Shown: one piece after another, positions 5,275-63,617 of the stretch | How positions within the stretch are numbered: the stretch's first letter is position 1 | How the letters are laid out: every line of letters starts with the position of its first letter | Source of the DNA: an uncultured Gammaproteobacteria bacterium | Lineage (GTDB): Bacteria; Patescibacteriota; Microgenomatia; Levybacterales; UBA12049 | NCBI GenBank assembly: GCA_964483115.1 | Contig: CAYZZF010000002.1 | Span: 5,493 to 69,492 of the forward strand | DNA: 64,000 nt | Direction of reading: 5' to 3' | Position numbers and translations under genes: made by a program | Notes under the pieces: generated by a model | Seen by the model: only the letters and a program-made list of their open reading frames with translations | What the model was told of the DNA's origin: nothing | Database searches by the model: none

Positions 5275-5277
5275 AAC

Positions 5278-6333
5278 TTAATATGAATTAAATAATTTAC
5301 CCCAATTTGTCTTCATAAAATTATCGATTCTTTTTCTGCCAATAAAATTATACCAGTAGCCATCATGATATAGATTGGAAGCCAAATATGACCATGGAGC
5401 AATAAAGGTTTGAAGCAATACTTTCTCAATATTTTCAGGAAGCTTATGATAAATAAATTTCTGGCCGCGTGAAGCGAAAGTATCGCTTGTTTTAAACCTC
5501 CATGAAGAAGGTAATTTTACATTAACATCAGGGGATAATGTCCCCAATTTTAATTTGTCTGCAAGCCTTAAATATTTTAATTTTTCAGGTTTAAAGCCCA
5601 TTATTTTTGCAACAACCGCATCTATGGCCACTAAATCGGATGAAGCAAAAAGATAATTTTTTTCTTCCCAATCCATTGCACGAGGACCTGAACCTTTTCC
5701 CACAATAGCTCCATCTGTCACACCTAAAATAGCAGGATGAATTTCTTTCTGGATTGTCAAAAGATCAACAATTGCCTCATGAATATATCTATGTGCAAAG
5801 TGTCTCACTTCTCCAAGCATTCCAAAATAATTCTTTATACAGCCGGTAGTGGTAGTGAATACGTGCATTTTGGCAGTGGCTAAATGGATTATGTTTTTAT
5901 TGAAAATTATTTCAGGAAGCAAAATTCCTTTCGGGAAAATTTTATCTAAAATTAGCATTTTATGCCTCGGTTTATAATAGATATACTTTTCATCAGTCAA
6001 ATAATGCATTTTCACTCCGTATTTTTTAAAAACCTTATCCCATTTATTATTTATTGTTCCCTGATAAACATTAGTGACTACAGTTCTATTTTCCAAAGGA
6101 ATTATTTTTTTAGGATTGAAGCCATCTTCAATCAAAGATTTTATAACACCCTCTAATTCCCATGGGGGAGTTGAACATGCGGGATAAAATTTAGTCCAAG
6201 ATAAATTAATTTTTAGAACCGTTTCTTTTTCTGGATTGAAATATCTTTTATATTGTGTTAATTCAAGCAGTTTTTTATAATCCTTCAAAACTGTTTCGGG
6301 TTTTGTCCTAACAAAAAATACTTTCGCCTTCAT
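5278..6333 (-). CDS. DUF362-domain protein
   Basis: Overall resemblance to the DUF362 family (about 350 aa, GVTDGAIVGKGSGP block). Function unknown. Confidence 0.45.
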   Translation of the reverse strand: MKAKVFFVRTKPETVLKDYKKLLELTQYKRYFNPEKETVLKINLSWTKFYPACSTPPWELEGVIKSLIEDGFNPKKIIPLENRTVVTNVYQGTINNKWDKVFKKYGVKMHYLTDEKYIYYKPRHKMLILDKIFPKGILLPEIIFNKNIIHLATAKMHVFTTTTGCIKNYFGMLGEVRHFAHRYIHEAIVDLLTIQKEIHPAILGVTDGAIVGKGSGPRAMDWEEKNYLFASSDLVAIDAVVAKIMGFKPEKLKYLRLADKLKLGTLSPDVNVKLPSSWRFKTSDTFASRGQKFIYHKLPENIEKVLLQTFIAPWSYLASNLYHDGYWYNFIGRKRIDNFMKTNWGKLFNSY

Positions 6334-6356
6334 AATCTATGTATTTTAACATAAAT

Positions 6357-8057: not shown

Positions 8058-9679
8058 AATTTTTTTTCAAAGATAAATAGTGTTGGTCTATCAAAAACAC
8101 TAGCGGTTTCTTCAAAACTAAATACCGGGTTTCCAAGATAAGTTATTTTGCAAAAAATGTCACAAGGGGTTTCATAAATTTCTATAAATCCCAATTTTTG
8201 ATTAAAAATATTATTGTAAAATTTATACCCTTTAGGAAATTGTTTTGGATTACTAAGTCTTGTATCTATAATTCTTTGGCTTGGGAAAACTGCAACTTCG
8301 TTTGTTTTTAATAGAAAAGAGAGTTCTAAGTCTTTATTTTCCATAGTATCAAGATCATAAAAATTAAAAAGAGTGATTATTGGGAAATTTCGATTAAAAG
8401 GAAGAATTCCTAGATCATAAACTTCGCTTAAAATTTTTGCATCATTTTTAACATGCTTTCTTGCCCAAGATGCAGCATCTACACGGGTATCAATTTTAGC
8501 ATAAACAGTTATAAAATAAGAAATTGCAAACACAAAATTTATTATTGTGATAAAAATTAGAAGATAATTTATAAGATTTTTTTTCAGAAAAGCGCGAAAA
8601 TCTGAGATGGCAAAGCCAATAATTAAAAATATAAAAGGCAGAGTTGGTAACACATAACGAGTCCATTTAGCAAAGAAGAAAGCTTGAGATAAAAATATTA
8701 AAAGGAAAGCTATGAGAAGTAAGAAAATATAATAGTTTTTATTTTTTATAAATATATAAATTAAATAAATAAGACAGACAACAAAAATAATTGTTGTAGA
8801 AGGATTTAGAAGAAAAGGATATATTTTGAGAAATTGATAAGCAATTGGAACAGTACCAAAAAACTCTTGCGTATAAAAAACAGGGAGTGTCCCAAGAGCA
8901 ACAGATGATTCATAGTTCATGCTAAAGAGAAAAGATTTGAAATCAAAAACAGAAAATGGGGAAAATATAAAAAAGGTTATAGCAGAAATAGTAAGAACTG
9001 AAAATAATTTCAAAAAGATCTTTTTATATTTTTTCTTTTCAATTCTTGCATTTAGAAAAATTGAGATTAATGGTATAGGAAAGAAAACAAGATTCGAAAT
9101 CTTTGTCGCTGCAAGAAAACCTAAAATCACACCTGATAGGATAATGTTTTTAAGTGTCATTTTTCTATAAATTTTTACGCTTATGAAAAATAATAAAGAC
9201 GCAAAAAAAGCACTTACCGTTTCGAATGTGCCGAAATGTGCAAATTGAATAAAACCTACACTTAAAATTGAAAATATCGAAGTAGTAATAGCTGCGGTTT
9301 TATCTTTTATTTCTTTAGCAATGAAATATAAAACGGGAATAAGAAGGGTGCTTAACAATGCAGACATAAAGCGGGAAATTAAAATGGCATTCTCAAAAGA
9401 AACTTGGGACATGGAATCAGAAATTTTAGTTTGGAAAATCACATTTTTTACAATTCCGGCAAAGAATATTAAATAAATAGGGAAACTTCCGTAAGCAAAA
9501 AAATGAGGATTCATTTGAGTTGGAAAATTAAGCTGGGAAACAGCGGCGGCAATGTTCCTTTCATCGGGATTAAAATAAAAAGGAGCGCCCCAGTCAAGAT
9601 TATAAAATCTTAAAAAAGCTCCGAAAGCCATTAAAATAAACAAGAATAACAACTCTTTGTTATTTAATATTTTTTTCAT
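8054..9679 (-). CDS. GT-C fold membrane glycosyltransferase (PMT/ArnT-like), tandem paralog
   Basis: FYNLDWGAPFYFNPDERNIA...HFFAYGSFPIYLIFF has the same architecture as 6357-8057. Confidence 0.7.
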   Translation of the reverse strand: MKKILNNKELLFLFILMAFGAFLRFYNLDWGAPFYFNPDERNIAAAVSQLNFPTQMNPHFFAYGSFPIYLIFFAGIVKNVIFQTKISDSMSQVSFENAILISRFMSALLSTLLIPVLYFIAKEIKDKTAAITTSIFSILSVGFIQFAHFGTFETVSAFFASLLFFISVKIYRKMTLKNIILSGVILGFLAATKISNLVFFPIPLISIFLNARIEKKKYKKIFLKLFSVLTISAITFFIFSPFSVFDFKSFLFSMNYESSVALGTLPVFYTQEFFGTVPIAYQFLKIYPFLLNPSTTIIFVVCLIYLIYIFIKNKNYYIFLLLIAFLLIFLSQAFFFAKWTRYVLPTLPFIFLIIGFAISDFRAFLKKNLINYLLIFITIINFVFAISYFITVYAKIDTRVDAASWARKHVKNDAKILSEVYDLGILPFNRNFPIITLFNFYDLDTMENKDLELSFLLKTNEVAVFPSQRIIDTRLSNPKQFPKGYKFYNNIFNQKLGFIEIYETPCDIFCKITYLGNPVFSFEETASVFDRPTLFIFEKKL

Positions 9680-9683
9680 TTAA

Positions 9684-10958
9684 TTAAATTACAATTTTCG
9701 CCACTTTTTGTCCAAGCTCCACCGCATAATTAGTACCCCTATCCCACGGATAAATTTGGTCTATATTGGCAAGATAAACGTTTTTGATAGGCGTTTTGAA
9801 AGGAGGTATTATTTTTCCATACCCAACCTCCATAACAGGCTGGGCAAAAGGAGCTTTAAAAACCTCATAGCTTATAACATATTGCTTATAGTTTGGATTT
9901 ATTTTCTTAAGAAACGGATCATAAATTTTTAGAAGTTCATCTGCTGCCATTTGCATATAAGGATGATCGAAAGGAAGATAATTGCCTATGTACACTATGT
10001 GTTCATTATTATAATATTTTTTGTCCATAAAATTTGTATGTTCAACCACAGCCATTAAAGGATTTTTTCTTTCGCAAATATTTAACCAGTATGTTCCATC
10101 AATAAGGAATTGTTTTTTAAGCCTCAAAATAAGATTGATCGCTCCTAAACTTTTAAGGCTTGCAAGTTTACTCTTGTAATCTAAAGGGAGTTCGGGGACA
10201 ATTTTTAAAAATAGAAAAGACGGCAAAGTAACAATTAACGAATCAAATTCATTTTTTTCAATTTTTGAATTTTGAGCTCCAATTTTAATTTTTGACTTTT
10301 GAAATTTGATTTTTGAAACCTCAGTATTATAGTAAAATTTTCCGCCTTTTTCTTGAATTTTTTCTTCAAGAGCTTCAGAGAATTCTAAAAACCCTCCTTG
10401 TGGATAAACAAGGCTTGGAGTTCTTTTTTTAATTCTTGCCCAAAACCATGCAAGAGAAATATCTTTTGCGAGATCACCAAATTTTCCTTTAAGAAGCGGA
10501 CTCCAAACCATTTCATAACCCTTTTTGCCCATAATTTTTAAAAGAATTTCGTTTGCTTTATATTTATCAAAGATTTTTAAAAAAGGGCTGAACTTTAAAA
10601 AACCAAGAGCCAATCCCATTCTAATTTTCTCAATAAAATTAAGGAGAGGGAAATTAATTAGAGTAAATGGAGAATCAAGTTGGTAAACTCCGCCCTTTAT
10701 AAAAGTTGAGGTTTTAGGTCTTTTGACAATAACTGGATAATTTATTTCTCTTGCTAAATCTAAAACTGTTTTATCATTTGTAAACCAATGATGGTAATGT
10801 TCTTCCACTGTCCATTTCCACCCCTTTTTTTTATAACCAATTGCAAGGCCTCCTGGTTTTGCCCCTTTTTCAAAAACTGCTACTTCATGACCATTTTTTA
10901 CCAATTCAAAAGCAGCGGACAGTCCGGTAAAGCCCGCACCAATAATTGCTATCTTCAT
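9684..10958 (-). CDS. Rossmann-type FAD/NAD(P)-binding oxidoreductase (amine-oxidase / UDP-galactopyranose-mutase-like fold)
   Basis: MKIAIIGAGFTGLSAAFEL...VFEKGAKPGGLA is a GxGxxG dinucleotide fold. Contains an in-frame repeat insertion at 10255-10318. Confidence 0.7.
   Translation of the reverse strand: MKIAIIGAGFTGLSAAFELVKNGHEVAVFEKGAKPGGLAIGYKKKGWKWTVEEHYHHWFTNDKTVLDLAREINYPVIVKRPKTSTFIKGGVYQLDSPFTLINFPLLNFIEKIRMGLALGFLKFSPFLKIFDKYKANEILLKIMGKKGYEMVWSPLLKGKFGDLAKDISLAWFWARIKKRTPSLVYPQGGFLEFSEALEEKIQEKGGKFYYNTEVSKIKFQKSKIKIGAQNSKIEKNEFDSLIVTLPSFLFLKIVPELPLDYKSKLASLKSLGAINLILRLKKQFLIDGTYWLNICERKNPLMAVVEHTNFMDKKYYNNEHIVYIGNYLPFDHPYMQMAADELLKIYDPFLKKINPNYKQYVISYEVFKAPFAQPVMEVGYGKIIPPFKTPIKNVYLANIDQIYPWDRGTNYAVELGQKVAKIVI
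10255..10318. repeat. intragenic in-frame copy of dispersed repeat
   Basis: aattttgacttttgaaatttga is a 22-bp exact match to the reverse complement of the groEL-downstream copy (20931-20965). Confidence 0.6.
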
Positions 10959-12286
10959 AAGGAAAGACTTTGGGCGAGAAGAAAAAGGAATACTCCAGTA
11001 ACAGTAATTGCCAGACCAATTATTCCAAAATTTACAATATTAGGATCGCCGGGTGCTGGTAGGGTGGGGGTTGGAGTCGCAGAACTTACCGGCGGTTCGG
11101 TAGGCATAATTGTTGGCGTAGGAGTTGCGGTTGGAGTTTGGGTTGGTGATGGAGAAAAAGCCGGCGTTGCGGAAGGAGTTGCCGATTGTGCAACTTGAGT
11201 TCCTGATGCATAGACAACAAAAGATTGAATTATTGTCCGTAGAATTCCTAAAGCATCTCTTGTAGTAATAGATATTGTGTGTGTGCCAGGCGAAAGGGGA
11301 GTATCAGGACGATAACTCCAGTTTCCAAAACCATCCGTTTCTACTTGAGCTTGTATATTTTCGGTGGAGCGAATAGTTATTGAAACAGTACTGTTTGGAA
11401 GAGCAACACCTTCGAATTTTGGTTGTTGATCGGAAAACCCTTGGTCCTTTTTAGGTATTAAAATTTCAGGACTTTTTGATGTTGTTTTTGCTAAGACAGG
11501 CAGAGCAGAAAAAACAGTCGATGAAGATGGGGTAGCAGGAGGTGAAACTAATGTAAAATCATAATCGTAGGATAGAATTATCGTAGGTACTTCTGTTGAT
11601 GAATTCGACAGTTCAATATTTGATGATAAATCCGCAGAAACTATTAGCATTTTAATAATAGAGTTTTCTTTAAGAGTCACGTATGAAGAAAGGTCGCTTA
11701 CTCTAAGAAGGTTTAATGGGATTTCATAGCTTCCGTCTTCTTTTGTTAGAGTTGATATTGCCTGCGAGTTACCTGCTGTTAGATAAACTATGGCTTCTTT
11801 TGGCGGGTCGCCATCGGGTAATTGAACCTTGCCCGAAACCTTTTTTTGCAAAGAACTCAAGGATGCAATATTCGGTCCTGTTGTTATACTAAAGGCAGCT
11901 CCGTTTTGAAGAAATGTGTCTTGCCCTGAAGTGATTGAAAAATAATAAGAAGTATTTGGTGTTAAATTTTTTACACTAATGCTATGAACTGCATGAGGAG
12001 TAAGCGAGCTCTTTTGTTCTCTTTCGTCCAATGCTGTTTGCCCTAAATTTCTATCTTTATCAAAATTTATAGATCCTAGAACAGCTGCGTCTGTTAAAAA
12101 AGATACTGTAAATGATGTGTCGGAAACATTAGTTATTCTTATATTTTTTGGAGAATTTGAAGGCCCAGCAAATCCAGTAAAGATTACCCTTCTTTGGACA
12201 AGAAATGTTGTTGTGCCTATTCCAATTACTATTACCAATAACCCGATTAATGTTGGTATGCGCTTATTCCAAATGCTATTTTTCAT
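10955..12286 (-). CDS. cell-surface protein: N-terminal TM/signal anchor, beta-rich (Ig/FN3-like) domains, PT-rich linker, C-terminal PGD + TM anchor
   Basis: The C-terminus is ...SATPTPTLPAPGDPNIVNFGIIGLAITVTGVFLFLLAQSLSL. The PT-rich region is SPSPTQTPTATPTPT. Confidence 0.55.
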   Translation of the reverse strand: MKNSIWNKRIPTLIGLLVIVIGIGTTTFLVQRRVIFTGFAGPSNSPKNIRITNVSDTSFTVSFLTDAAVLGSINFDKDRNLGQTALDEREQKSSLTPHAVHSISVKNLTPNTSYYFSITSGQDTFLQNGAAFSITTGPNIASLSSLQKKVSGKVQLPDGDPPKEAIVYLTAGNSQAISTLTKEDGSYEIPLNLLRVSDLSSYVTLKENSIIKMLIVSADLSSNIELSNSSTEVPTIILSYDYDFTLVSPPATPSSSTVFSALPVLAKTTSKSPEILIPKKDQGFSDQQPKFEGVALPNSTVSITIRSTENIQAQVETDGFGNWSYRPDTPLSPGTHTISITTRDALGILRTIIQSFVVYASGTQVAQSATPSATPAFSPSPTQTPTATPTPTIMPTEPPVSSATPTPTLPAPGDPNIVNFGIIGLAITVTGVFLFLLAQSLSL

Positions 12287-12567
12287 GGGGCAGTTCCTCC
12301 TTGAAGTTGTTGCTGAGCCGGTGTTGTTGCTGTCTCTTCTGGGGTAGGAATTACGTTCCCCATCTCATAGATTGGATATATTACCTCTCTGTTTTTAAGA
12401 TTCTCAATAGTTTTGGCATCAAAATCAGGATTTATGGGAGAAATCTGAATACTTAAGGGTGTCGATATAGTACTAACAACCAAATTGTCATATATACTAA
12501 AAATAATCCATGCGATTATTATGATAAAAGTAGATATTAGTAAAAAAAGAATATCTCTCTGTTTCAT
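12283..12567 (-). CDS. small bitopic membrane protein (pilus-operon associated)
   Basis: N-terminal TM (ILFLLISTFIIIIAWIIFSIY). Translationally coupled to pilO on one side and the surface-protein gene on the other. Confidence 0.4.
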   Translation of the reverse strand: MKQRDILFLLISTFIIIIAWIIFSIYDNLVVSTISTPLSIQISPINPDFDAKTIENLKNREVIYPIYEMGNVIPTPEETATTPAQQQLQGGTAP

Positions 12568-12570
12568 TTT

Positions 12571-13224
12571 TTATTTTTTAAAATAAGCCTTTCCTAAAAT
12601 ATTAAATTGCAGAAGCCCCTGTTCTGTTTCGCTGCCCTTTTTATTTATAGAGAGCGTATCTATAGAAAGCACCCTTTGCATTTTAGTTAGGGATGATAAA
12701 AATTTTGTTATATCCTCATAGGACCCTTGCCCAGAAATAGAAAAGGAGAACGAGGAGTATTTGCTCTGATCAGTTGAAGGAGGCTCAGCCTCTACCTGAA
12801 AGCTTTGAAGATTGGTAAGTATGATATTGGAATTTTTTGCAATCGATTGTAATTGTGCCAAAAGAGTAGGAACCTCTGGATTTTTGGGAATACTAGCCAA
12901 AACAATTGGTAAGTCGCTTTGTATAAGATTATATTTTTTTTGGAGAACTGATAGATTATTAATCTTTTCTTCTAGTTTTTGATCAACATATTTACTGTCA
13001 GCCAGCTGCTTTTTAAGCTTTGCAATCGTTGATAAAGTTGGATTTATTGCAAATAAACCAAAAAAGGACAGAGCCACAAGAGATAAGACAATGCTTGTGA
13101 ATCTTTGTGTTTTTTCTTTCTTAAAGTCAGGCAAGAGCTCAAAATATTTATTATTCTTGATATTTCTAAAAATATTGCCTGCTTTGTTTTGTTCTTTCAT
13201 AAAATAATCTTTATTCTTGCGCAA
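12571..13224 (-). CDS. pilO: type IV pilus assembly protein PilO-like
   Basis: Short cytoplasmic N-terminus, one TM, a coiled-coil, then a ferredoxin-like C-terminal domain; about 200 aa. Sits immediately downstream of the PilN-like gene. Confidence 0.5.
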   Translation of the reverse strand: MRKNKDYFMKEQNKAGNIFRNIKNNKYFELLPDFKKEKTQRFTSIVLSLVALSFFGLFAINPTLSTIAKLKKQLADSKYVDQKLEEKINNLSVLQKKYNLIQSDLPIVLASIPKNPEVPTLLAQLQSIAKNSNIILTNLQSFQVEAEPPSTDQSKYSSFSFSISGQGSYEDITKFLSSLTKMQRVLSIDTLSINKKGSETEQGLLQFNILGKAYFKK

Positions 13225-13750
13225 GTGTAGCTGTAATGCTCACGGTGATAGTTGTACTTGATAGCTTATTTTCTATTTTGTCTATACTTACACTTTTTAT
13301 ATTTTTTGAATTTCTTAAAGAACTAATAAAAACGCCAAGAGATGAGACTAATTGAAGATTTGCCTCTATGGTTAGACGATTTTCAGAAATAAGAAAATTA
13401 TTGAAGGTCATTCCTTGAGGAGCAAAACTAATGATCTCTTTTAAGATGTTTAATTTTTTCCCGCCCAAAGTGGAAAAATCAGATGTTAACTTAAGCCTAT
13501 CTTGTAAGTCTCTATAGGTATCTTCTCGATTTTTAAAATATTGTACAATTGTCTGCTCTTGTTTAATTTTTGAATGAAGATCAATAAGCTGTCTGTCTAA
13601 AGAGAATCTATATAAGAAAGCAGATAAGGCAATAAGCTCAATAATTATTACAACAAGCCGTCCTATTGTTAGTGCCCAATTTATAAATTTATCGAAGAAA
13701 TCTATACGTTCCTCTCCCAATAAATTTATAGATGGATGTCTTTTTACCAT
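13211..13750 (-). CDS. pilN: type IV pilus assembly protein PilN-like
   Basis: N-terminal SINLLGEE, the conserved PilN INLLP-type motif, followed by a TM and periplasmic domain. Confidence 0.55.
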   Translation of the reverse strand: MVKRHPSINLLGEERIDFFDKFINWALTIGRLVVIIIELIALSAFLYRFSLDRQLIDLHSKIKQEQTIVQYFKNREDTYRDLQDRLKLTSDFSTLGGKKLNILKEIISFAPQGMTFNNFLISENRLTIEANLQLVSSLGVFISSLRNSKNIKSVSIDKIENKLSSTTITVSITATLAQE

Positions 13751-13784
13751 CGCACTTTTAGTCTAGGGATTTTTTTAGTTTTTG

Positions 13785-14075
13785 TCAAAGAGAGGACGAG
13801 AAGGATTTTTTGCTTTGAGCAGATCTTTTCTTAACAATTTTTTTAACAATCATTTTTGCAAGTCTTGATTTTATTCTCACCGCTTTATTTTTATGAATAA
13901 CGTTCTTTTTAGCAGCTTTGTCTGCCATACTTAAAGCTTGTTGAACAGATTTTTTGGTTGGAGTTTTTATTGCCCTTTTGATAGCAGACTTTAAAAGATT
14001 TTTTAATTTTTTGTTTTCAGTCATTCTCTTTGCGTCTTTTCTTAATTTTTTCCGAGCTGATTTTATCACTGGCAT
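13785..14075 (-). CDS. rpsT: 30S ribosomal protein S20
   Basis: MPVIKSARKKLRKDAKR... is basic and 96 aa long, a typical S20. Confidence 0.8.
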   Translation of the reverse strand: MPVIKSARKKLRKDAKRMTENKKLKNLLKSAIKRAIKTPTKKSVQQALSMADKAAKKNVIHKNKAVRIKSRLAKMIVKKIVKKRSAQSKKSFSSSL

Positions 14076-14111
14076 AGGTGGATTTTAGCATGTTATACTT
14101 TAAATTACAAT

Positions 14112-15770
14112 ATGGCCAATAATTTTTTTAAAAAAGGTTTGAATCTTCTCCTTGCACGACAAACCAATATTTTATCTGCCGCTTTTATCATAATGATAAC
14201 GATTATCCTCTCGCAGATATTAGGGCTTGTTCGACAAAGACTTCTGGTCGCATTTTTCGGAGCCTCAGATACCTTAGGAGTTTATCTTGCGTCATCTCGT
14301 CTCCCTGATTTTCTATTTCAGCTTATTGTTGCCGGTGCACTTTCCTCTGCTTTTATTCCAGTCTTTTCTGATTATCTTGGGAAGCAGAAATATGAAGAGG
14401 CGTATAGAGTCGGCTCAACACTTCTTTACTTGGGGCTTATTTTGTTCTCTTTTTTTGCTGTTATCCTTTTTATCTTTGCAGGTACCTTCTCAAAACTTAT
14501 TGCCCCGGGCTTTTCACCCTCGCAAATTTTACTTATGGCAAAGCTTATGAGAATAATCACTTTTGGAGAATTATTATTTATTATCGGAAGTTTTTTTTCA
14601 GCTATTCTTCAGTCATATAACCATTTTTTTATTCCAGGGATTGCTGCGGCCCTTTATAATCTAGGGATAATTATAGCAATTATAACCCTTTATCCTATCT
14701 TTGGAATTTTTTCAGCAGTCTACGGAGTTATACTTGGCGCATTTATTTTTGTTATTATTCAGCTGCCTTTCATAAAAGATGTTAAATTTTCTTTCAAACC
14801 TTCATTCAACATCAAGGAAAGCGGGGTAATTCAGGTAGTAAAACTTATGTGGCCAAGAACCCTGTCGATAGCGATCTTTCAATTGGGGACTATAATAACT
14901 GTGACTTTAGTATCATTTCTCCCTTCGCCTGGAAGAAGCTATGTCATTTTCGATTATGCCCAAACCCTTGCTTCTGCGCCAGTTGTTCTTATTGGTCAGG
15001 CAATAGCTCAAGCCGCTTTTCCAGTTTTATCGCGCGAGAAAGACAGACTTGATGATTTTAAAGCAACCTTTATCACAAGTTTTAATCAAATGCTTTATCT
15101 AGTACTTCCTATTTCTGTTCTCTTTTTGGTTCTCCGTATCCCAATTGTCAGACTTGTTTTCGGTGCAGCAGCCTTTGACTGGCAAGCAACAGTTTCAACC
15201 GGAAGAACGCTTGCCCTGTTCAGCATCTCAATTTTTGCTCAGGCCCTTATCTATTTAGTTTCAAGGGGTTTTTACGCTCTTCATGATACCAAAATCCCGC
15301 TTATTGTAGGTAGTGCAACAACAATACTTATGTTAGGACTAGAAGCATTATTTATTTTTACATATCGTCTCGGAGTTGATAGCCTTGCAACTGCTTTTTC
15401 AATTGCAAGCATTGCAAATCTTGTAATTTCACTTATCCTTCTTGATTTTAAAATAGGCGGATTTAAGAAAACTACATTCCTTCTTTCAATTACAAAAATA
15501 TCTGTTGCAACTATCTTTACAGGTTTTGCTCTCTACATTCCTGTAAAACTTTTGGACCGTTTGGTCTTTGATACGACAAAAACCATTAATCTTCTGATTC
15601 TAACCGGAATCTCATCGTTTGTAGGGCTCTCGCTTTATCTTTTTTTAACCTGGCTCTTTGATGTAAAAGAAGCATCAACTTTTATTTTACTATTTAGGAA
15701 AATTGGCAACTGGAGAGAGATATTAAGTGGAAGTGAGGAGACAATCGATGCTACAAGAATAAATCCATAA
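14112..15770 (+). CDS. murJ: lipid II flippase MurJ (MviN)
   Basis: LLVAFFGASDTLGVYLASSRLPDFLFQLIVAGALSSAFIPVF is the MurJ N-terminal signature; 14 TM. Confidence 0.85.
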   Translation: MANNFFKKGLNLLLARQTNILSAAFIIMITIILSQILGLVRQRLLVAFFGASDTLGVYLASSRLPDFLFQLIVAGALSSAFIPVFSDYLGKQKYEEAYRVGSTLLYLGLILFSFFAVILFIFAGTFSKLIAPGFSPSQILLMAKLMRIITFGELLFIIGSFFSAILQSYNHFFIPGIAAALYNLGIIIAIITLYPIFGIFSAVYGVILGAFIFVIIQLPFIKDVKFSFKPSFNIKESGVIQVVKLMWPRTLSIAIFQLGTIITVTLVSFLPSPGRSYVIFDYAQTLASAPVVLIGQAIAQAAFPVLSREKDRLDDFKATFITSFNQMLYLVLPISVLFLVLRIPIVRLVFGAAAFDWQATVSTGRTLALFSISIFAQALIYLVSRGFYALHDTKIPLIVGSATTILMLGLEALFIFTYRLGVDSLATAFSIASIANLVISLILLDFKIGGFKKTTFLLSITKISVATIFTGFALYIPVKLLDRLVFDTTKTINLLILTGISSFVGLSLYLFLTWLFDVKEASTFILLFRKIGNWREILSGSEETIDATRINP

Positions 15771-15817
15771 ACTTTATAGATGTAATTTAAATCCTCCTCT
15801 GTTATAATTTCTCCGCT

Positions 15818-17602
15818 ATGGACCAAGAGAATATTAGAAACTTTGCTCTAGTTGCTCATATTGATCATGGAAAATCAACTCTTGCGGACCGCATTATGGA
15901 AATATGTGGTGCAGTTCCCAAAAAACATGAGCCTCAAATTTTAGACAGTCTTGAGCTTGAGAGGGACCATGGCATTACTATCAAATTAAAAGCCGTTCGT
16001 TTAAACTATACCTTAAACGCTATACCCTATCAGCTGAATTTGTTGGATACTCCGGGACATGCTGACTTTTCTTACGAAGTTTCAAGATCTCTTGCTTCTG
16101 TTGAAGGTGCCTTGCTCATTGTTGATGCAACACAAGGAGTGCAGGCACAGACTCTTTCCAATTTTAACCTGGCAATGAATGCCAAACTTACGCTGATTCC
16201 GGTCATCAACAAAATTGATATGCCACAGGCGGATGTCTTAAAGACTACTTTAGAACTTGTCGGTTTGGGATTTAAGGAAAATGAAATTATAAAAGTTTCA
16301 GCCAAAACAGGAGAAAATGTGGAAAAATTACTTTCAGAAATTATTGATAAAATACCTCCTCCCCGAGTTATTACAGACAAGCTCGTCTCTCTTATTTTCG
16401 ACTCAAGCCTTGATCCTTACAAAGGAGTTATTGCTACGGTGAGACTCTTTGGCGGATTACTAAAAACAGGCGATGAAATTTTATTTATGGCAGCAAAAAC
16501 AAAAGGTCAGATTTTACAATTAGGTTATTTGACTCCTAAACCATTTTATTCACAAGAGCTAAAAAAGAGAGAGATTGGATTTATTGTTACAAATATAAAA
16601 GATTTATCTCTGGTAAAGGTCGGGGATACAATATGTCATCCAAAAGAAATAGTTGCTCCGCTTCCTGGATATCAAAAGGTAAAGCCCGTGGTCTTTCTTT
16701 CTTTTTTTCCGCTCAGCTCATCTGATTTTCCGAAAATGAAGGAGGCTTTTGAGAAACTTAAATTAAATGACGCATCCCTTATCTATTCAAATGAGTCATC
16801 CGTTTCTTTGGGTCAGGGTTTTCGTGTAGGCTTTCTCGGTCTTTTGCATGCGCAGATTACTCAAGAAAGACTTGAAAGAGAATATGGTCTTGATATTATT
16901 GCGGCGTCTCCCTCTGTCAATTTTATTATTGATGGTAGAACAATCAATAAGCCTTCGGATTTTAACCCAAATTTAAATTCTCAAGTTCTTGAACCATATG
17001 CAAGAGCTACAATTTTTGTACCCCATAAATATTATGGGCAAATAAGCGATTTGATTTATAAAAAGCGTGGAACGATTGAACATTTTGAAAATATTGGTGC
17101 ATCTTTGAAGATTGAAGCAGTTATTCCACTTCTTGAGATATTAATCGGTTTTTATGATGAGCTTAAGTCTGATACTTCTGGGTTTGCCTCTTTAGATTTT
17201 GAAGTAATTGATTATCGAAGGGCAAACTTGGTAAAACTGGATATCTTGGTAAATCATGAGTCAGTTGAGGGTCTTTCGCAGATAATCCCATTTGAAAAAG
17301 CACAGGAGTTTGGGAAAAAACTAGTCAGTAAACTTAAAGAAGAAATTCCACGCCAGAATATTCCAATTCCCATACAGGCTGTTATTAATTTTGCAAGAAT
17401 AAAAGGAGGAATTGGTGGAAAAATTTTAGCCCGGGAAACAATCCCAGCTTATCGAAAAGATGTTACGGAAAAACTATATGGCGGGGATGTTACGCGCAAA
17501 ACAAAACTTTTAGAAAAACAGAAAAAAGGCAAGAAACGAATGAAACGTTTCGGCCAAATAGAAATTCCCCAAGAAGCCTTTCTGGCAGTTTTAAAATTTT
17601 AA
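15818..17602 (+). CDS. lepA: elongation factor 4 (LepA)
   Basis: NFALVAHIDHGKSTLADR, and a LepA-specific C-terminal domain. Confidence 0.95.
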   Translation: MDQENIRNFALVAHIDHGKSTLADRIMEICGAVPKKHEPQILDSLELERDHGITIKLKAVRLNYTLNAIPYQLNLLDTPGHADFSYEVSRSLASVEGALLIVDATQGVQAQTLSNFNLAMNAKLTLIPVINKIDMPQADVLKTTLELVGLGFKENEIIKVSAKTGENVEKLLSEIIDKIPPPRVITDKLVSLIFDSSLDPYKGVIATVRLFGGLLKTGDEILFMAAKTKGQILQLGYLTPKPFYSQELKKREIGFIVTNIKDLSLVKVGDTICHPKEIVAPLPGYQKVKPVVFLSFFPLSSSDFPKMKEAFEKLKLNDASLIYSNESSVSLGQGFRVGFLGLLHAQITQERLEREYGLDIIAASPSVNFIIDGRTINKPSDFNPNLNSQVLEPYARATIFVPHKYYGQISDLIYKKRGTIEHFENIGASLKIEAVIPLLEILIGFYDELKSDTSGFASLDFEVIDYRRANLVKLDILVNHESVEGLSQIIPFEKAQEFGKKLVSKLKEEIPRQNIPIPIQAVINFARIKGGIGGKILARETIPAYRKDVTEKLYGGDVTRKTKLLEKQKKGKKRMKRFGQIEIPQEAFLAVLKF

Positions 17603-17606
17603 AAGA

Positions 17607-18788
17607 TTAGAAGGCAAAGAATAAGGCGCCTGCGATAATTGAGATTACTAATCCGAAAATTCCTATACCAATTATTGTATCTCCAGGACCGGGTGGGACA
17701 ATGGTTGGCGTCGGCGTTGTCGCAGAGGATTGAGAAGCAGTAACAGTTATGTTTTGTGCGCAAGCCGAGCTGCTACTTATAGCTTCGTTATTGTCAGTTA
17801 AAATTGAAGTTGCAGTGAAAGTACCAGCATTATTATAAGTGTATGATATTGGTACATTTACAGAATTTGAGCCTATTCCTCCGCCGGTCGTAACATCTTG
17901 TATGGATCCATCCCCAAAATCAAATGTAACCTTATTGATTGTTCCGTCTGGATCATTGCCGTTTGCCGTTAAGGTTATGGAAAATGGAGCTGTACCTGTT
18001 CCAGATCGATCAATTGATAAACTTGAACAAACCGGAGCTTGGTTTATAGGCCCTCCTTGACCTGGGGTAGGAGTAGAAGTTATTGGTGGTAAAGATGGAG
18101 TAGGGGACGGCAAGGTAGGAGTAGGACTTATCTCACTCGGCGTTGGAGAGGGTACCGCGCCAGTTATGGTTACTTCTGCAGGATTGGTTGTTGAGAGGAC
18201 ATTCTCGTTAAATTGTTCGGTCGCAGCAATTGATAGCACTTGCGTTTGATTGCCAAATGTGATTTTGGTTGGGATACCTAGACCAGTTGGGGCTATGGCC
18301 TGAAAAGTCACAGTTGCAATGGTTGTTTTTGTCTGAATTGCTTTTGTAGGGTCTGCCCCCACAGAAAGGGTTGTTGTAATAGTACCAGGTTCATATACTG
18401 GTTCCTGAAGGGTTGAAGGCAGCACTTTAGCGTCTGAAACAAGACCAGAGCCAGCTGTTGCAAGTTTTGTTCCATCGTAAGAGATGACTAATTTAACAAA
18501 AGAAACCTGATTTTTCTCTCCGGGATCAAGGGAGACATCAAAACTTACTGTTTGTCCAACAGAAGTGGTTGCAGTGGTGGGGACAAAAGAAAGAGTTGTT
18601 GCTGCCACAGCCCTTCCCCTTATCTCTTGCTGTTTTTGGACAAGATATACAGTGAGTGGAATTGCTACAAGAAGTATTATTATAATTCCGGATAAAACTA
18701 GCTTTTTAGGAGATAAAGACATAAATTTAATTAGTCTTAGTTTATCGTATAGAAGAAAAAGGGGTATGTCAACCCCGAACCACATCAT
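17607..18788 (-). CDS. cell-surface protein with PKD domain, ST/P-rich linker and C-terminal PGD + TM anchor
   Basis: PKD-like block FDFGDGS...YTYNNAGTFTAT. The C-terminus is TPTPTIVPPGPGDTIIGIGIFGLVISIIAGALFFAF. Confidence 0.6.
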   Translation of the reverse strand: MMWFGVDIPLFLLYDKLRLIKFMSLSPKKLVLSGIIIILLVAIPLTVYLVQKQQEIRGRAVAATTLSFVPTTATTSVGQTVSFDVSLDPGEKNQVSFVKLVISYDGTKLATAGSGLVSDAKVLPSTLQEPVYEPGTITTTLSVGADPTKAIQTKTTIATVTFQAIAPTGLGIPTKITFGNQTQVLSIAATEQFNENVLSTTNPAEVTITGAVPSPTPSEISPTPTLPSPTPSLPPITSTPTPGQGGPINQAPVCSSLSIDRSGTGTAPFSITLTANGNDPDGTINKVTFDFGDGSIQDVTTGGGIGSNSVNVPISYTYNNAGTFTATSILTDNNEAISSSSACAQNITVTASQSSATTPTPTIVPPGPGDTIIGIGIFGLVISIIAGALFFAF

Positions 18789-35302: not shown

Positions 35303-35308
35303 GAATAT

Positions 35309-37627: not shown

Positions 37628-37687
37628 TATTAAAAGTACCATCAGTGCTAAAATATATAAAAGGTAATGCTGTAAATAGATAGAAAT

Positions 37688-40243: not shown

Positions 40244-40246
40244 TGT

Positions 40247-41845: not shown

Positions 41846-41883
41846 TAAATTGCAATTTAGACAAAAACCTCTTACACTAAAAA

Positions 41884-60667: not shown

Positions 60668-61396
60668 TTAAATCTTCTCTAATCTTGCTTTCATAATAAG
60701 TCTTTTCCAAGTCGTTCCAGGAGGAGTACAAGTAACAAGAGTTAGATAAGAATTACTATAGTCTTGAGAAAATATCGAGATATCATCTGGATTAACGACA
60801 TTTATATTAAAAATTCTATAAAGATAAATCACCCCATCTACATTAACATAAACTACATCACCTTCTTGTAAGTTATATAAAGTTGCAAAGATTGTTTTGT
60901 AGTCCTTTGGATTAAAAAGCTGAGGAAGCGTTGAATGCCCAAATATTACAGCATTACCTTTATCAGGCGGAATTGCAGTCCCCTGATAGTTTACCAGATG
61001 CCTAGCAAGATCGTTATCGGTTGTTGAGACAACCGCATCTTTTATATTAAGTTTTGGGATGGAGATACTATATGTTGGAATTTTGGGCTTTTTCCCTAAG
61101 GAGGGACGGTAGCTTGGGAACCAGTTCTGCGCATTAGTATAATCCACTCCTGTTATTGTATTTTGAGCCTGATAGATTAAACTGCTAATCTCAGAAGTTA
61201 CAACATTGGTTTTTGGTATTGAGGTTGTAAAATCTTTCATGGTTGTCTTCCCTGAAAAATATATTTGCCATGACAATATAGGATAAAAAATATAAAAGAC
61301 AATAGTAAGCCCAAAAAACAGAAAAAGAAGGCTTAGGATGCGAAAAAATTTTTTGCGACTTTTTGTGTTTCTCTTAAAGTAGTAATATTTACTCAT
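60668..61396 (-). CDS. sortase-family transpeptidase
   Basis: N-terminal TM; VIFGHS (catalytic His), LTLVTCTP (TLxTC catalytic Cys) and a downstream Arg. Confidence 0.75.
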   Translation of the reverse strand: MSKYYYFKRNTKSRKKFFRILSLLFLFFGLTIVFYIFYPILSWQIYFSGKTTMKDFTTSIPKTNVVTSEISSLIYQAQNTITGVDYTNAQNWFPSYRPSLGKKPKIPTYSISIPKLNIKDAVVSTTDNDLARHLVNYQGTAIPPDKGNAVIFGHSTLPQLFNPKDYKTIFATLYNLQEGDVVYVNVDGVIYLYRIFNINVVNPDDISIFSQDYSNSYLTLVTCTPPGTTWKRLIMKARLEKI

Positions 61397-63617
61397 TGAT
61401 TCTGATTGTAATTTTTATGTTGCCTGGTAGTATCGGAAGCATTTTGGGAATAAACGGCAGGCTAAAGTAAGACATTACATTAACATTTGAAACCTCAGGT
61501 ATTTTTGATAATATCTCCTGAGCTTGTTTTACAGACTTCCCGCTGATCTCCTTCCTTATTTTTTTATCATTAATTTTTGGTTTAACTATCGCCGTGATGG
61601 TAAGATTTGCAGAAACATCTTTATTTTCCTGCTGTCTTACATCCTTTGTTTCAACTCTTATATCAGTCGGGTCAATAGCAAGATCATTGGAAGTTTCATT
61701 TTTAAGAAGCGTTTGCGAAAATGAGATAAGATCATTTTTTGCATAAGAAATCCCTTGATATCCGACAGAACCCTTAAGCGTTACCTCGCTTGCCTCGTCT
61801 CCTACATTCTTATCGAAATTTTTATTATCAATTTTTGTATTTATAAAAACAGGAAGAAGAGTTTTATCATTGGATATCTTTTTTGAAAGGTCGTCCCTTG
61901 CCTTTTGTTCTAATTTTTTAGGCAGGTCGGCAAGTAATTTTGCCACATCATCTTTTGACACAACTTTTATATTTTTTTTTGTGCCTCCAGAAAAAGGATT
62001 GTCGTTTTTAGCGGCAATTGAGAGACTTTCTCCTATTGAAAATTTAACATTTGAAGGTAAATTATATTCCGTACCAATTTTAGTGGCAGTAACAGACATG
62101 TTGGCTTTGCCAGGAGTCGTACCTGTAAATATATCCCCCGATGCAGAAGATACAGTCACATTTTTGTCAAGAACAAATTCCAAACCATTACTAGAGGTTA
62201 TTGAGGTGTCTGATGATAGAGTTTGTGGGTCTGTGGAGTTGTTAAAAATTGTTACTGTTCCTTTTGCTTTCGTCCCTGTCTCTTTTTCCCCAGTCACAGC
62301 CGTAGAAATGCTTCCGTCCTCTGATATAGATGCAAGCTCGGCAGAAATAATACTTTTTGAAGGATTGGTAGTTGCCGATATAGAGAAGATAACATTTTGA
62401 TTCTGCTTTACAGTTTTTGGATTTATAGTAAGTGAAACCTCTGCTCGGGTTACAAATACATAAAGCAAAATAACAAGAATGATAACAGCGACAATAGGGA
62501 TTAAAAATCTAGTCTGATTTTTGGGAAGTATAGATAAACCCCTTTTTACAGGATTTTTTTTAAGATTTTTAAAAAGCCTAAAAAGAATGTCCCTTACGCC
62601 AAGAAGAATCATAGATGCAGTTTGTGGCAGTTGTTTTTTTTGAGCTTCCTCAAGTTCTTCTTCTGGGATTTCGGCAATTTGTTCGCCCACAATTTCTTGC
62701 GGGATTTGCGGCTCTTCTTTTTTGGGTGGGGGTTTCTTGGCAACATCTTTATTCTCAACAAATCCGAGATATTCTGAAGATACCTCTTCTGTTTCCCTAA
62801 GACCTTCTTTTCTCTTTTTTTCTAAACTTTCTTCTTCGATAAATTCTTCTTGTAGCTCTTCTTCAAAGACTTCAAAACCCATTTGAGTTGCCGCGCCAAA
62901 TAATACCGCTCTTGCGTCGAATTCATCGGCCAAGGTTGTTACCTGGGGAATATGGAGAAATGGCAGACTCTTGCCCCAGCGGTGATTTATAAATTCTTGG
63001 GTTATATCTTCGTCTGCGTCAAAAATTGTAATGCGAGATGGAAGAATCTCAGAAGATGTAAAATGTTTTAGAAGAGTATCAACTGTTAAAGCAGGTGAAT
63101 CAGGGATTTCTGAGGTTTTTGTTTCTGTTATCCTTCCGGCTCTAACCAGCGCAACCGAGACAAACTTCTTTCCTATTTCAACAAGAATTGTTGAAACGGG
63201 TGCACCTTCTTCTTTTGCAAGAAGGTGGGCTATAGCTTCAAAGATTACCAAAAAACCTATTGGCTCAAGGCCTAGCTCATCACTTACCTTTTTGAGTTTT
63301 AAAAGATAGTCCCTTTTTATTTTGTTGTCTTCAACCCAAGTCTCCTTGACACCAAAAATTGTTTTTATAGTCTTTGATTCTGTTGGAAGGAACTGTTCTG
63401 CAGTTGATACTGTTTTATCTAAAACCTCAAGTAATTCATCTATTGACGCATCCTCAATCGAATTTTTGAAGTGCTCTTTGTGTTTACCAACGACCCGAAT
63501 TTTACCCGAGAGTTCCTCGAAGATTACGGCATTTGCCTCTTCATTTCGAAGAACTAAGGCTAGAAAATATTCCGGTTTTTCTTTTCTCTCCAAAAAGGGC
63601 AGGGAAGGTAGTTTCAT
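61389..63617 (-). CDS. bitopic membrane protein: N-terminal actin-like (FtsA/PilM-like, degenerate) cytoplasmic domain, one TM, large S/T-rich extracellular domain
   Basis: Segments YFLALVL..AVIFEELSGKIRVVG and STILVEIGKKFVSVALVRAGRI resemble actin-fold phosphate and adenosine motifs but lack the Asp/Gly residues. TM is RFLIPIVAVIILVILLYVFV; about 380 aa lie outside. Overlaps the sortase gene. Confidence 0.45.
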   Translation of the reverse strand: MKLPSLPFLERKEKPEYFLALVLRNEEANAVIFEELSGKIRVVGKHKEHFKNSIEDASIDELLEVLDKTVSTAEQFLPTESKTIKTIFGVKETWVEDNKIKRDYLLKLKKVSDELGLEPIGFLVIFEAIAHLLAKEEGAPVSTILVEIGKKFVSVALVRAGRITETKTSEIPDSPALTVDTLLKHFTSSEILPSRITIFDADEDITQEFINHRWGKSLPFLHIPQVTTLADEFDARAVLFGAATQMGFEVFEEELQEEFIEEESLEKKRKEGLRETEEVSSEYLGFVENKDVAKKPPPKKEEPQIPQEIVGEQIAEIPEEELEEAQKKQLPQTASMILLGVRDILFRLFKNLKKNPVKRGLSILPKNQTRFLIPIVAVIILVILLYVFVTRAEVSLTINPKTVKQNQNVIFSISATTNPSKSIISAELASISEDGSISTAVTGEKETGTKAKGTVTIFNNSTDPQTLSSDTSITSSNGLEFVLDKNVTVSSASGDIFTGTTPGKANMSVTATKIGTEYNLPSNVKFSIGESLSIAAKNDNPFSGGTKKNIKVVSKDDVAKLLADLPKKLEQKARDDLSKKISNDKTLLPVFINTKIDNKNFDKNVGDEASEVTLKGSVGYQGISYAKNDLISFSQTLLKNETSNDLAIDPTDIRVETKDVRQQENKDVSANLTITAIVKPKINDKKIRKEISGKSVKQAQEILSKIPEVSNVNVMSYFSLPFIPKMLPILPGNIKITIRINE

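What the first reader, a model, noticed from the sequence alone, without database searches (positions are those of the whole stretch)
10955..18788. Two surface proteins share a novel-looking C-terminal 'P-G-D + TM helix' anchor; sortase encoded in the same window
Two proteins, at 10955-12286 and 17607-18788, both end with a PT-rich linker followed by a terminal TM helix with no basic tail. Those C-termini read LPAPGDPNIVNFGIIGLAITVTGVFLFLLAQSLSL and VPPGPGDTIIGIGIFGLVISIIAGALFFAF. The arrangement resembles the logic of archaeal PGF-CTERM or LPXTG sorting signals, but with a PGD tripeptide. A sortase (60668-61396, with TLVTC and His) is present 40 kb away, yet no LPXTG/LAXTG substrates are visible. 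The PGD-CTERM motif may therefore be the recognition signal of this sortase or of another transpeptidase.
Basis: seen in the sequence. Interest (0 to 1): 0.55.

Follow-up and report, generated by a model that had tools for sequence, protein, structure and literature searches.

The report
Decayed LPXTG sortase anchors, not PGD
The two "PGD + membrane helix" protein tails are real, but they are worn-down copies of the ordinary LPXTG-type cell-wall sorting signal that relatives of this uncultivated Levybacteria-like bacterium carry in canonical form, so this is a lineage variant of a known system rather than a new one.

Summary
Both ORFs, both C-terminal tails and the sortase are in the sequence as described. 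The "PGD-CTERM" reading does not hold.

I compared 120 homologues of each protein. The conserved element is a sortase pentapeptide just before the helix:
- Cohesin/PKD family: [LIMV]-[PA]-P-T-G.
- fn3/Ig family: [LI]-[PA]-[PA]-[P/T/A/G]-G-N.
- The Gly is present in 239 of 240 sequences; the Asp of "PGD" in only 31/120 and 5/120.

The window proteins read IVPPG|PGD and LPAPG|D. These are LPXTG-like motifs with Pro in place of Thr. The two "PGD" tripeptides are therefore not in equivalent positions.

Some orthologue tails of protein 1 pass NCBI's LPXTG-anchor model (TIGR01167). A 34-position tail profile found 95 hits among 1.84 billion proteins. All lie at or within a few residues of the C-terminus, they come from at least five protein families, and most carry LPPTG.

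The window sortase has intact His/Cys/Arg. Among solved structures it is nearest class C, but it falls below every class cut-off. It is the only sorting enzyme in the window and shares contigs with these proteins.

Lineage-specific points are the missing basic tail, the tolerance of Pro/Ala/Gly at the cleavage position, and an apparently undescribed substrate set for CPR sortases. Cleavage is untested.

The parts
10955..12286 (-). Surface protein 1 (443 aa): N-terminal membrane helix, fn3/purple-acid-phosphatase-N-like domain, CarboxypepD_reg-like domain, Big_13 Ig-like domain, PT linker, C-terminal sorting tail.
   Evidence: ORF; Pfam domains; 555 homologues, mostly labelled Levybacteria or Patescibacteria.
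11048..11062 (-). LPAPG, the LPXTG-equivalent pentapeptide of protein 1 (residues 409-413), with Pro where orthologues have P50/T32/A17/G17.
   Evidence: Column counts; codons; orthologue tails with LPPTGN/LPATGN score 16.6 and 18.1 bits on TIGR01167, cut-off 15.9.
10973..11041 (-). C-terminal membrane helix of protein 1 (NIVNFGIIGLAITVTGVFLFLLA) with a GxxGx6G pattern, followed by QSLSL. Orthologues usually have Arg where this protein has Gln.
   Evidence: Hydropathy; the Gly columns and R74/H11 versus Q.
17607..18788 (-). Surface protein 2 (393 aa as ORF; probable start at 18722): leader, cohesin-like domain, PKD domain, PT linker, C-terminal sorting tail.
   Evidence: ORF; Pfam Cohesin and PKD; 349 homologues.
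17688..17702 (-). IVPPG, the LPXTG-equivalent pentapeptide of protein 2 (residues 363-367). Homologues have [L52 I30 M21 V14][P49 A48][P84 A25][T94] G120. The 'PGD' follows this motif.
   Evidence: (the invariant Gly is G8 of TPTIVPPG...).
17610..17678 (-). C-terminal Gly-rich membrane helix of protein 2 (TIIGIGIFGLVISIIAGALFFAF), ending at the C-terminus with no basic tail.
   Evidence: none of 120 homologues has K/R/H in the last 10 residues.
18609..18722 (-). N-terminal leader of protein 2 (MSLSPKKLVLSGIIIILLVAIPLTVYLVQKQQEIRGRA), shared with unrelated tail-bearing families.
   Evidence: tblastn of P0325, P0329 and P0285 hits only this stretch; N-termini listed.
60668..61396 (-). Sortase (242 aa) with an N-terminal membrane anchor, TLVTC (60728-60742) and invariant His154/Cys223/Arg232. 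It is the only sorting enzyme in the window.
61389..63617 (-). 742-aa single-pass membrane protein whose stop overlaps the sortase start. It is a conserved partner of this sortase clade; function unknown.
   Evidence: ORF; a protein of about 710-810 aa sits immediately upstream of the sortase in about 43 of 48 related loci; only a weak Baseplate_J hit.
12283..13750 (-). Context: PilN-like (13211-13750), PilO (12571-13224) and a 94-aa membrane ORF (12283-12567), directly upstream of protein 1 and overlapping it.
   Evidence: Pfam PilO E=2.9e-18, PilN weak; the same gene order in L051-L054.

Best explanation
The two tails are diverged copies of the LPXTG-class cell-wall sorting signal as it occurs in Levybacteria (Microgenomates, CPR).

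Proposed mechanism. Each protein is exported by means of an N-terminal hydrophobic leader. It is then held in the membrane by the C-terminal Gly-rich helix. That presents the pentapeptide 7-8 residues outside the helix (LPAPG in protein 1, IVPPG in protein 2; canonical L-[PA]-x-T-G in relatives) to the membrane-anchored sortase at 60668-61396. The sortase would cut before the invariant Gly and transfer the protein to a peptidoglycan precursor.

'PGD' is not the signal. In protein 1 its Pro-Gly are the Thr-Gly equivalents. In protein 2 it lies just after the motif.

Shown: homology of the tails to canonical LPXTG/LAXTG tails; modular use of the tail on several protein families; an intact sortase in the same genome.

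Inferred: that this sortase is the enzyme, and that the Pro-for-Thr variants are still cleaved.
For: 1. Homologue tails. In the protein-2 family (n=120) the motif columns are [L52 I30 M21 V14][P49 A48][P84 A25][T94 S7 P6 V5 A4] G120. In the protein-1 family (n=120) they are [L69 I37][P63 A33][P82 A22][P50 T32 A17 G17] G119 N92. Asp at the 'PGD' position occurs in only 31/120 and 5/120.
2. In the combined alignment of 82 tails from both families, the only invariant column is the Gly of the pentapeptide.
3. Cross-family detection: the tail profile of one family finds the other far above background.
4. Orthologue tails of protein 1 with LPPTGN/LPATGN plus a basic tail pass TIGR01167 LPXTG_anchor (16.6 and 18.1 bits; cut-off 15.9).
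5. A 34-position tail profile searched against 1.84e9 representative proteins gave 95 hits at E<=1e-3. All are at or within a few residues of the C-terminus. LPPTG is the commonest pentapeptide (29/90). About 20 hits have N-terminal parts that fall into at least 3 further families with no or unrelated Pfam domains.
6. The sortase is intact: PF04203 E=1.6e-24, His154/Cys223/Arg232 invariant in 54 homologues, sortase fold. No exosortase, archaeosortase or rhomboid was found in any ORF of the window.
7. The sortase and the tail proteins are on the same contig in the window and in JACOXU010000001.1 (L004 and L051). A third tail family (P0252, L057) is in the same assembly as sortase locus L027.
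8. In the Pro-type clade of the protein-1 family the rest of the signal is kept: aliphatic at -4 in 44/50, Gly in 49/50, basic tail in 48/50. This argues the signal is still read.
9. Peptidoglycan-related genes (MurJ, YceG/MltG, LCP) are in the window.
10. Published survey: sortase is nearly ubiquitous in Microgenomates (PMC6744442).
Against: - Neither window tail contains Thr at the cleavage position, and neither has a basic tail.
- Neither tail hits TIGR01167.
- From my own knowledge, characterised sortases strongly prefer Thr (occasionally Ala) before the scissile bond. I know of no sortase shown to cleave Pro-Gly, and in Staphylococcus the charged tail is required for anchoring.
- No substrate gene lies within 10 kb of the sortase in 50 related genomes, so the enzyme-substrate link rests on co-occurrence only.
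- The sortase matches no defined class: class C 72 bits, D 57, E 52, F 24, against cut-offs of 160-166.
- Nothing here demonstrates cleavage.
Confidence: 0.55

Rival explanations
1. The tails descend from LPXTG signals but no longer work as sortase substrates in this genome. With Thr replaced by Pro in both proteins, and Arg replaced by Gln in protein 1, the proteins would stay tethered to the membrane by the C-terminal helix instead of being linked to the wall.
For: Both window motifs lack Thr. Protein 1 has also lost the Arg that 74/120 orthologues keep after the helix. In the Pro-type clade the -3 position is relaxed: P19 A12 S8 T4 V4, versus P28/32 in the Thr type. From my own knowledge, known sortases discriminate strongly against non-Thr residues at this position.
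Against: Pro at this position is common and evolutionarily stable: 50/120 in the protein-1 family, with the flanking Gly-Asn-Ser, the aliphatic -4 residue and the basic tail all conserved. One genome can carry a Thr-type and a Pro-type tail alongside a single detected sortase gene (JACOXU010000001.1). A dead motif would be expected to drift like the adjacent linker, which is highly variable.
Confidence: 0.33
2. This is a new 'PGD-CTERM' sorting signal read by a dedicated, non-sortase enzyme, analogous to PGF-CTERM/archaeosortase or PEP-CTERM/exosortase.
For: Superficial architecture: a Thr/Pro-rich linker, a short Pro-Gly motif, a terminal helix, and no LPXTG in the window copies.
Against: The Asp is not conserved, and the two PGDs are not in equivalent columns. 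Relatives carry LPXTG/LAXTG. There are no hits to any PGF-, PEP-, GlyGly- or other CTERM model. No exosortase, archaeosortase or rhomboid gene is in the window.
Confidence: 0.04
3. Chance resemblance: two unrelated proteins that both happen to end in a low-complexity linker and a hydrophobic helix.
For: The segments are short and compositionally biased. Only two examples occur in 64 kb.
Against: Cross-family profile scores lie far above the background of 978 ORFs. There are 95 library-wide significant hits, all C-terminal. The GxxGx6G spacing is shared in the helices of both families.
Confidence: 0.02

Closest known systems
LPXTG cell-wall anchor domain (TIGR01167) with a housekeeping sortase, as in Firmicutes
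   Same: Tripartite C-terminal signal on exported surface proteins: a pentapeptide with invariant Gly, a hydrophobic helix containing Gly, and (in most protein-1 orthologues) a basic tail. The sortase is a membrane-anchored Cys transpeptidase with TLxTC. Some orthologue tails pass the TIGR01167 cut-off.
   Different: The window copies have Pro instead of Thr and no basic tail. The whole protein-2 family and the further tail families never have a basic tail (0/120; 86/90) and score at most 9.9 bits on TIGR01167. The position before Gly is unusually permissive in the protein-1 family (P/T/A/G).
Class E sortase with LAXTG signals (Actinobacteria)
   Same: LPxTG and LAxTG motifs are mixed about equally (P49/A48 in the protein-2 family). 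As far as detected there is a single sortase per genome, and it is not clustered with its substrates.
   Different: The sortase scores 52 bits against a class E cut-off of 160, and its nearest solved structures are class C, not E. The signals lack the basic tail.
Class C (pilus-assembly) sortases, e.g. Corynebacterium diphtheriae SrtA 5K9A and Actinomyces oris SrtC1 2XWG
   Same: These are the best sequence and fold matches (E about 1e-12; 20-28% identity over about 185-195 aligned columns, including helices ahead of the beta-barrel).
   Different: 72 bits against a class C cut-off of 160. There is no C-terminal membrane helix and no adjacent pilin genes in 50 genomes. Instead the sortase is fused into an operon with a roughly 750-aa membrane protein.
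PGF-CTERM with archaeosortase A
   Same: A Thr-rich linker followed by a short Pro-Gly-containing motif and a terminal membrane helix.
   Different: No model hit. No archaeosortase or exosortase gene in the window. The conserved motif in relatives is LPXTG, not PGx.

Membership tests
LPXTG-type sortase sorting signal (TIGR01167 LPXTG_anchor) | Pentapeptide LPXTG or an accepted variant (LAXTG, LPXTA...) about 30-40 residues from the C-terminus | tested here: not met
   The window proteins read LPAPG and IVPPG, with Thr replaced by Pro. Their homologues meet the feature: T94/120 in one family, T32/120 in the other, and Gly in 239/240.
LPXTG-type sortase sorting signal (TIGR01167 LPXTG_anchor) | Hydrophobic membrane-spanning segment directly after the motif | tested here: met
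   23-residue helices with mean hydropathy 2.6 within the last 30 residues.
LPXTG-type sortase sorting signal (TIGR01167 LPXTG_anchor) | Positively charged tail after the helix | tested here: not met
   Neither window tail has Lys or Arg. 89/120 protein-1 homologues have K/R/H in the last 10 residues; 0/120 protein-2 homologues do.
LPXTG-type sortase sorting signal (TIGR01167 LPXTG_anchor) | Score at or above the curated cut-off (15.9 bits) on the family model | tested here: not met
   No TIGR01167 hit for either window protein or for its isolated tail. Orthologue tails score 18.1 (P0219), 16.6 (P0231) and 15.0 (P0199) bits; tail-less types score at most 9.9.
LPXTG-type sortase sorting signal (TIGR01167 LPXTG_anchor) | N-terminal export signal on the same protein | tested here: met
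   Both proteins have an N-terminal hydrophobic segment after a basic start. The leader of protein 2 is shared with other tail-bearing families. No dedicated signal-peptide predictor was available.
LPXTG-type sortase sorting signal (TIGR01167 LPXTG_anchor) | A sortase encoded in the same genome | tested here: met
   Sortase at 60668-61396. Same-contig co-occurrence in JACOXU010000001.1.
LPXTG-type sortase sorting signal (TIGR01167 LPXTG_anchor) | Cleavage before Gly and covalent attachment to peptidoglycan | not testable with these tools
   Requires peptide-cleavage assays or proteomics.
Sortase superfamily (PF04203 / TIGR01076) | Family model above cut-off, catalytic His-Cys-Arg triad, sortase beta-barrel fold | tested here: met
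   PF04203 86.5 bits (cut-off 26.6) and TIGR01076 72.2 bits (cut-off 39.35). H154, C223 and R232 are invariant in 54 sequences. Foldseek probability 1.00 to many sortase structures.
Sortase classes C, D, E, F (NCBIfam NF033745-NF033748) | Score at or above the class-specific cut-off (160-166 bits) | tested here: not met
   Class C 72.0, D 57.1, E 52.4, F 23.9 bits.
PGF-CTERM / PEP-CTERM / GlyGly-CTERM type signals (archaeosortase, exosortase, rhombosortase) | Match to the signal model and presence of the cognate polytopic processing enzyme | tested here: not met
   No such NCBIfam hit at E<=1 for the whole proteins or E<=10 for the isolated tails. No such enzyme among the window ORFs scanned with Pfam. 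The rest of the genome could not be examined.

The most novel reading that the evidence does not exclude
Levybacteria/Microgenomates run their own sortase sub-system. Its parts would be: a sortase clade outside classes A-F that is almost always co-transcribed with a roughly 750-aa membrane partner; a signal with a Gly-zipper helix that does not need a cationic tail; and an enzyme that accepts Pro, Ala or Gly as well as Thr before the scissile bond, so that it cuts a Pro-Gly bond in the two window proteins.
Probability: 0.25. Interest if true: 0.55.

Novelty: new variant of a known kind. Interest (0 to 1): 0.3.

Why it matters
Sortase is nearly universal in Microgenomates (PMC6744442). In the literature I could search, none of the papers I found that mention sortase in CPR bacteria says what it sorts.

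This analysis names concrete candidate substrates: at least five surface-protein families. One is embedded in a pilN-pilO operon; another sits between groES/groEL and lepA. It also yields a tail profile that could be used to annotate them.

These are candidate attachment proteins of ultrasmall bacteria that are thought to live attached to other cells.

If the Pro/Ala/Gly variants are really cleaved, the enzyme would have an unusual specificity of possible use in protein ligation. If they are not cleaved, Thr-to-Pro changes would be a simple evolutionary switch between wall-linked and membrane-tethered display.

Tried and rejected
1. PGD as the motif. Rejected: Asp is poorly conserved, and the two tripeptides fall in different alignment columns.
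2. Substrates clustered next to the sortase. I scanned 10 kb either side of the sortase in 50 related genomes (about 0.8 Mb) for C-terminal helices. No tail-bearing gene was found.
3. More tail-bearing genes near known ones. The tail profile run over 1.05 Mb of fetched loci (2064 ORFs) hit only the three families already used to fetch them.
4. Extending the source contig beyond the window. One look-up returned only an 8.5-kb contig and the other found nothing.
A narrower alignment returned only 10 loci, mostly short.
6. A specificity change in this genome's sortase that might explain Pro in both tails. Only one deviation from a residue kept in at least 85% of homologues lies near the active site (Thr206 to Ile, in the loop before the TLVTC strand). 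That is too little to interpret.
7. Identity of the 742-aa sortase partner. No NCBIfam hit, only a marginal Baseplate_J hit, and nothing useful among solved structures.
8. Rfam and tRNA scans of the window found nothing.
9. Literature searches for CPR or Patescibacteria sortase signals returned no description of substrates.

Full report
**Observation**

The window has 35.5% G+C. It carries two minus-strand ORFs at exactly the stated coordinates: 10955-12286 (443 aa) and 17607-18788 (393 aa). Their C-termini read as quoted.
- Each has an N-terminal hydrophobic segment, extracellular-type domains, a Pro/Thr-rich linker and a 23-residue terminal helix. Neither has Lys or Arg after the helix.
- Protein 1 carries fn3/Pur_ac_phosph_N, CarboxypepD_reg and Big_13 domains. 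Protein 2 carries Cohesin and PKD domains.
- The sortase at 60668-61396 is genuine: PF04203 E=1.6e-24, and TLVTC can be read in the translation.
- Among ORFs of at least 80 aa in the window, only these two have this kind of tail.

**What the tails are**

I collected the best 120 homologues of each protein. Nearly all that carry a name are labelled Levybacteria or Patescibacteria, so the window comes from a Levybacteria-like member of the Microgenomates (CPR).

Aligning only the C-termini shows what is conserved.
- Protein-2 family: [L52 I30 M21 V14]-[P49 A48]-[P84 A25]-[T94 S7 P6 V5 A4]-G120, followed by [P77 S29]. This is LPXTG/LAXTG.
- Protein-1 family: [L69 I37]-[P63 A33]-[P82 A22]-[P50 T32 A17 G17]-G119-N92-S84. 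This is usually followed, after the helix, by Arg, Lys or His.
- The Asp of 'PGD' is present in only 31/120 and 5/120.
- In a joint alignment of 82 tails from both families, the single invariant column is the Gly that ends the pentapeptide.

The window proteins therefore read IVPPG|PGD and LPAPG|D. They are LPXTG-equivalents with Pro in place of Thr. The two 'PGD' tripeptides do not occupy equivalent positions: in protein 1 the Pro-Gly are the Thr-Gly equivalents, while in protein 2 the tripeptide follows the motif.

**Is the tail a real, transferable signal?**

- A profile built from protein-1-family tails alone detects all 120 protein-2-family tails (median 15 bits, maximum 31.7). The best unrelated ORF among 978 scores 8.8 bits.
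- Both helices share a GxxGx6G pattern at nearly the same distance from the motif.
- A 34-position profile of both families was searched against 1.84 billion representative proteins. It returned 95 hits at E<=1e-3 for the whole library, every one at or within a few residues of the C-terminus.
- Most of those hits are protein-2-like. About 20 have unrelated N-terminal parts that fall into at least three further families, most with no Pfam domain.
- LPPTG is the commonest pentapeptide (29/90), and 86 of 90 have no Lys or Arg in the last eight residues.
- One subfamily of protein-1 homologues carries a protein-2-type tail behind a residual protein-1-type motif (LAPGGNSPGPDGK...LLFAL). This suggests the tails are exchanged as modules.

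**Comparison with the known model**

- Isolated orthologue tails of protein 1 with LPPTGN/LPATGN and a basic tail score 16.6 and 18.1 bits on TIGR01167 LPXTG_anchor (cut-off 15.9).
- The tail-less type scores at most 9.9 bits.
- The two window tails are not detected.
- No PGF-, PEP-, GlyGly- or other CTERM model matches.

**The enzyme**

- I scanned essentially every sizeable ORF of the window against Pfam. The sortase is the only sorting enzyme; there is no exosortase, archaeosortase or rhomboid.
- The sortase has an N-terminal membrane helix. His154, Cys223 and Arg232 are invariant across 54 homologues.
- A predicted structure (mean pLDDT 74.9) matches sortase structures with probability 1.00. 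Class C pilus sortases are the nearest, followed by class D and class A.
- It falls far below the NCBIfam cut-offs for classes C, D, E and F, so I leave it unclassified.
- It differs from conserved residues of its clade at only four positions. One, Thr206 to Ile, lies in the loop before the TLVTC strand. I draw no conclusion from this.

**Linkage between enzyme and tails**

- The sortase and tail-bearing proteins are on the same contig in the window and in JACOXU010000001.1 (L004 and L051).
- A third tail family (P0252, L057) is in the same assembly as sortase locus L027.
- In 50 related genomes no tail-bearing gene lies within 10 kb of the sortase. The tail profile found no additional tail genes in 1.05 Mb of fetched loci.
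- The sortase therefore behaves as a housekeeping enzyme with a few scattered substrates.
- A published survey reports sortase as nearly ubiquitous in Microgenomates (PMC6744442). None of the papers I found describes its substrates.

**Genomic context**

Both proteins sit in a strongly conserved neighbourhood: groEL-groES, protein 2, lepA, murJ, rpsT, pilN-like, pilO, a small membrane ORF, protein 1, an amine-oxidase-like gene, GT-C glycosyltransferases, DUF2298, LCP and tpiA. Finding 'two in one window' thus reflects conserved gene order, not enrichment. Protein 1 overlaps the small ORF downstream of pilO and probably belongs to that operon.

**Most likely mechanism**

Export through the N-terminal leader, then retention by the C-terminal helix, then recognition of the pentapeptide by the membrane-anchored sortase, with cleavage before Gly and transfer to a wall precursor. 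MurJ, MltG/YceG and LCP in the window argue that a wall is made.

The homology and modularity of the signal and the presence of the enzyme are shown.

In favour of continued function:
- Pro at this position is frequent and stable (50/120 in the protein-1 family).
- In that clade the aliphatic -4 residue (44/50), the Gly (49/50), Asn-Ser and the basic tail (48/50) are retained, while the adjacent linker varies freely.
- The same genome can carry a Thr-type and a Pro-type tail with one detected sortase.

Against continued function:
- From my own knowledge, characterised sortases strongly prefer Thr, and in Staphylococcus the charged tail is needed for anchoring.
- The window copies lack both features. 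Protein 1 has Gln where 74/120 orthologues have Arg.

The main rival is therefore that these two copies are now plain membrane anchors. I put the sortase-processed reading at 0.55, the decayed-anchor reading at 0.33, a truly new PGD system at about 0.04, and chance at about 0.02.

**Novelty and verdict**

The 'new PGD-CTERM signal' is not supported. What is there is a lineage-specific variant of the LPXTG sorting signal. Its particular features are:
- no cationic tail in most families;
- a permissive residue before the scissile bond;
- a Gly-zipper helix;
- a sortase clade outside the defined classes, coupled to a large membrane partner.

I rate this as a new variant of a known kind, of modest interest (0.3). 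The most novel reading still open, probability about 0.25, is a distinct Microgenomates sortase sub-system able to cut Pro-Gly.

Noticed in passing
window 18609-18722 (-), N-terminus of protein 2; also P0285, P0287, P0297, P0307, P0329 and L051 2286-3458: Tail-bearing proteins from unrelated families share an N-terminal leader: a basic start, a helix ending in A(I/V)P(L/V)T(V/L)Y(L/F)VQ(K/Q)QQ(E/N)(I/L)R(G/Q)(R/K)A. No NCBIfam or Pfam model matches it. It may be a lineage-specific export or processing signal paired with the C-terminal tail.
   Followed up: partly
window 61389-63617 (-) and L001-L048 immediately upstream of the sortase: The sortase start overlaps the stop of a 742-aa single-pass membrane protein with an acidic linker, one helix, and an outer part giving a marginal Baseplate_J hit. 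A partner of about 710-810 aa with a conserved C-terminal ...P(F/L)(L/F)PKxLP....NIxI... motif precedes the sortase in about 43 of 48 related loci. Its function is unknown and it has no solved relatives.
   Followed up: partly
window 60668-61396 (-): The public gene call for this sortase (P0331) is only 190 aa, 79% of the ORF, and lacks the N-terminal membrane anchor. Homologues align over the full 242 aa, so the longer start at 61396 is probably correct.
   Followed up: partly
window 17607-18788 (-): The first 22 codons of the protein-2 ORF (MMWFGVDIPLFLLYDKLRLIKF) have no counterpart in homologues. Similar spurious extensions appear in the ORFs of L053, L063 and L066. The true start is probably Met23 at 18722.
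   Followed up: partly
window 10955-13750 (-); L051-L054: Protein 1 is always the fourth gene of a pilN-like, pilO, small membrane ORF, protein 1 series with overlapping stops and starts. It sits where pilP/pilQ would be in double-membrane bacteria, so it may be a wall-anchored component of the type IV pilus apparatus.
   Followed up: partly
P0170-P0230 subfamily of protein-1 homologues (e.g. L053 10001-11410): This subfamily has a chimeric tail, ...LAPGGNSPGPDGKI(V/I)TLGLLGG..LLFAL. A protein-2-type helix with no basic tail sits behind a residual protein-1-type motif. This suggests the sorting tails are swapped between families as modules.
   Followed up: no
window 2397-9679 (-), 24232-25722 (-), 1307-2416 (+): The window is dense in envelope genes: three PMT_2-like GT-C glycosyltransferases, DUF2298, an LCP (LytR_cpsA_psr) ligase, a GT4 (MraY/WecA-like) enzyme, UbiA and MurJ. 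The PT-rich linkers of the two surface proteins could be O-glycosylation targets; this is speculation.
   Followed up: no
window 34982-44580 (+): A 106-aa protein with a weak T4SS_pilin hit is followed by a 772-aa polytopic protein with no Pfam match, two ClpB-like AAA+ proteins (851 and 803 aa), and a 532-aa protein with no match. This could be a secretion or conjugation-like module.
   Followed up: no
window 60779-60781 (-), sortase residue 206: The window sortase has Ile where 47 of 53 homologues have Thr. The position lies in the loop just before the TLVTC strand, a region that contacts the sorting signal in characterised sortases. It could relate to Pro-type motifs in this genome, but a single change cannot be interpreted.
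   Followed up: no
window 1-64000: No tRNA, tmRNA or Rfam family at gathering threshold anywhere in the 64 kb.
   Followed up: yes
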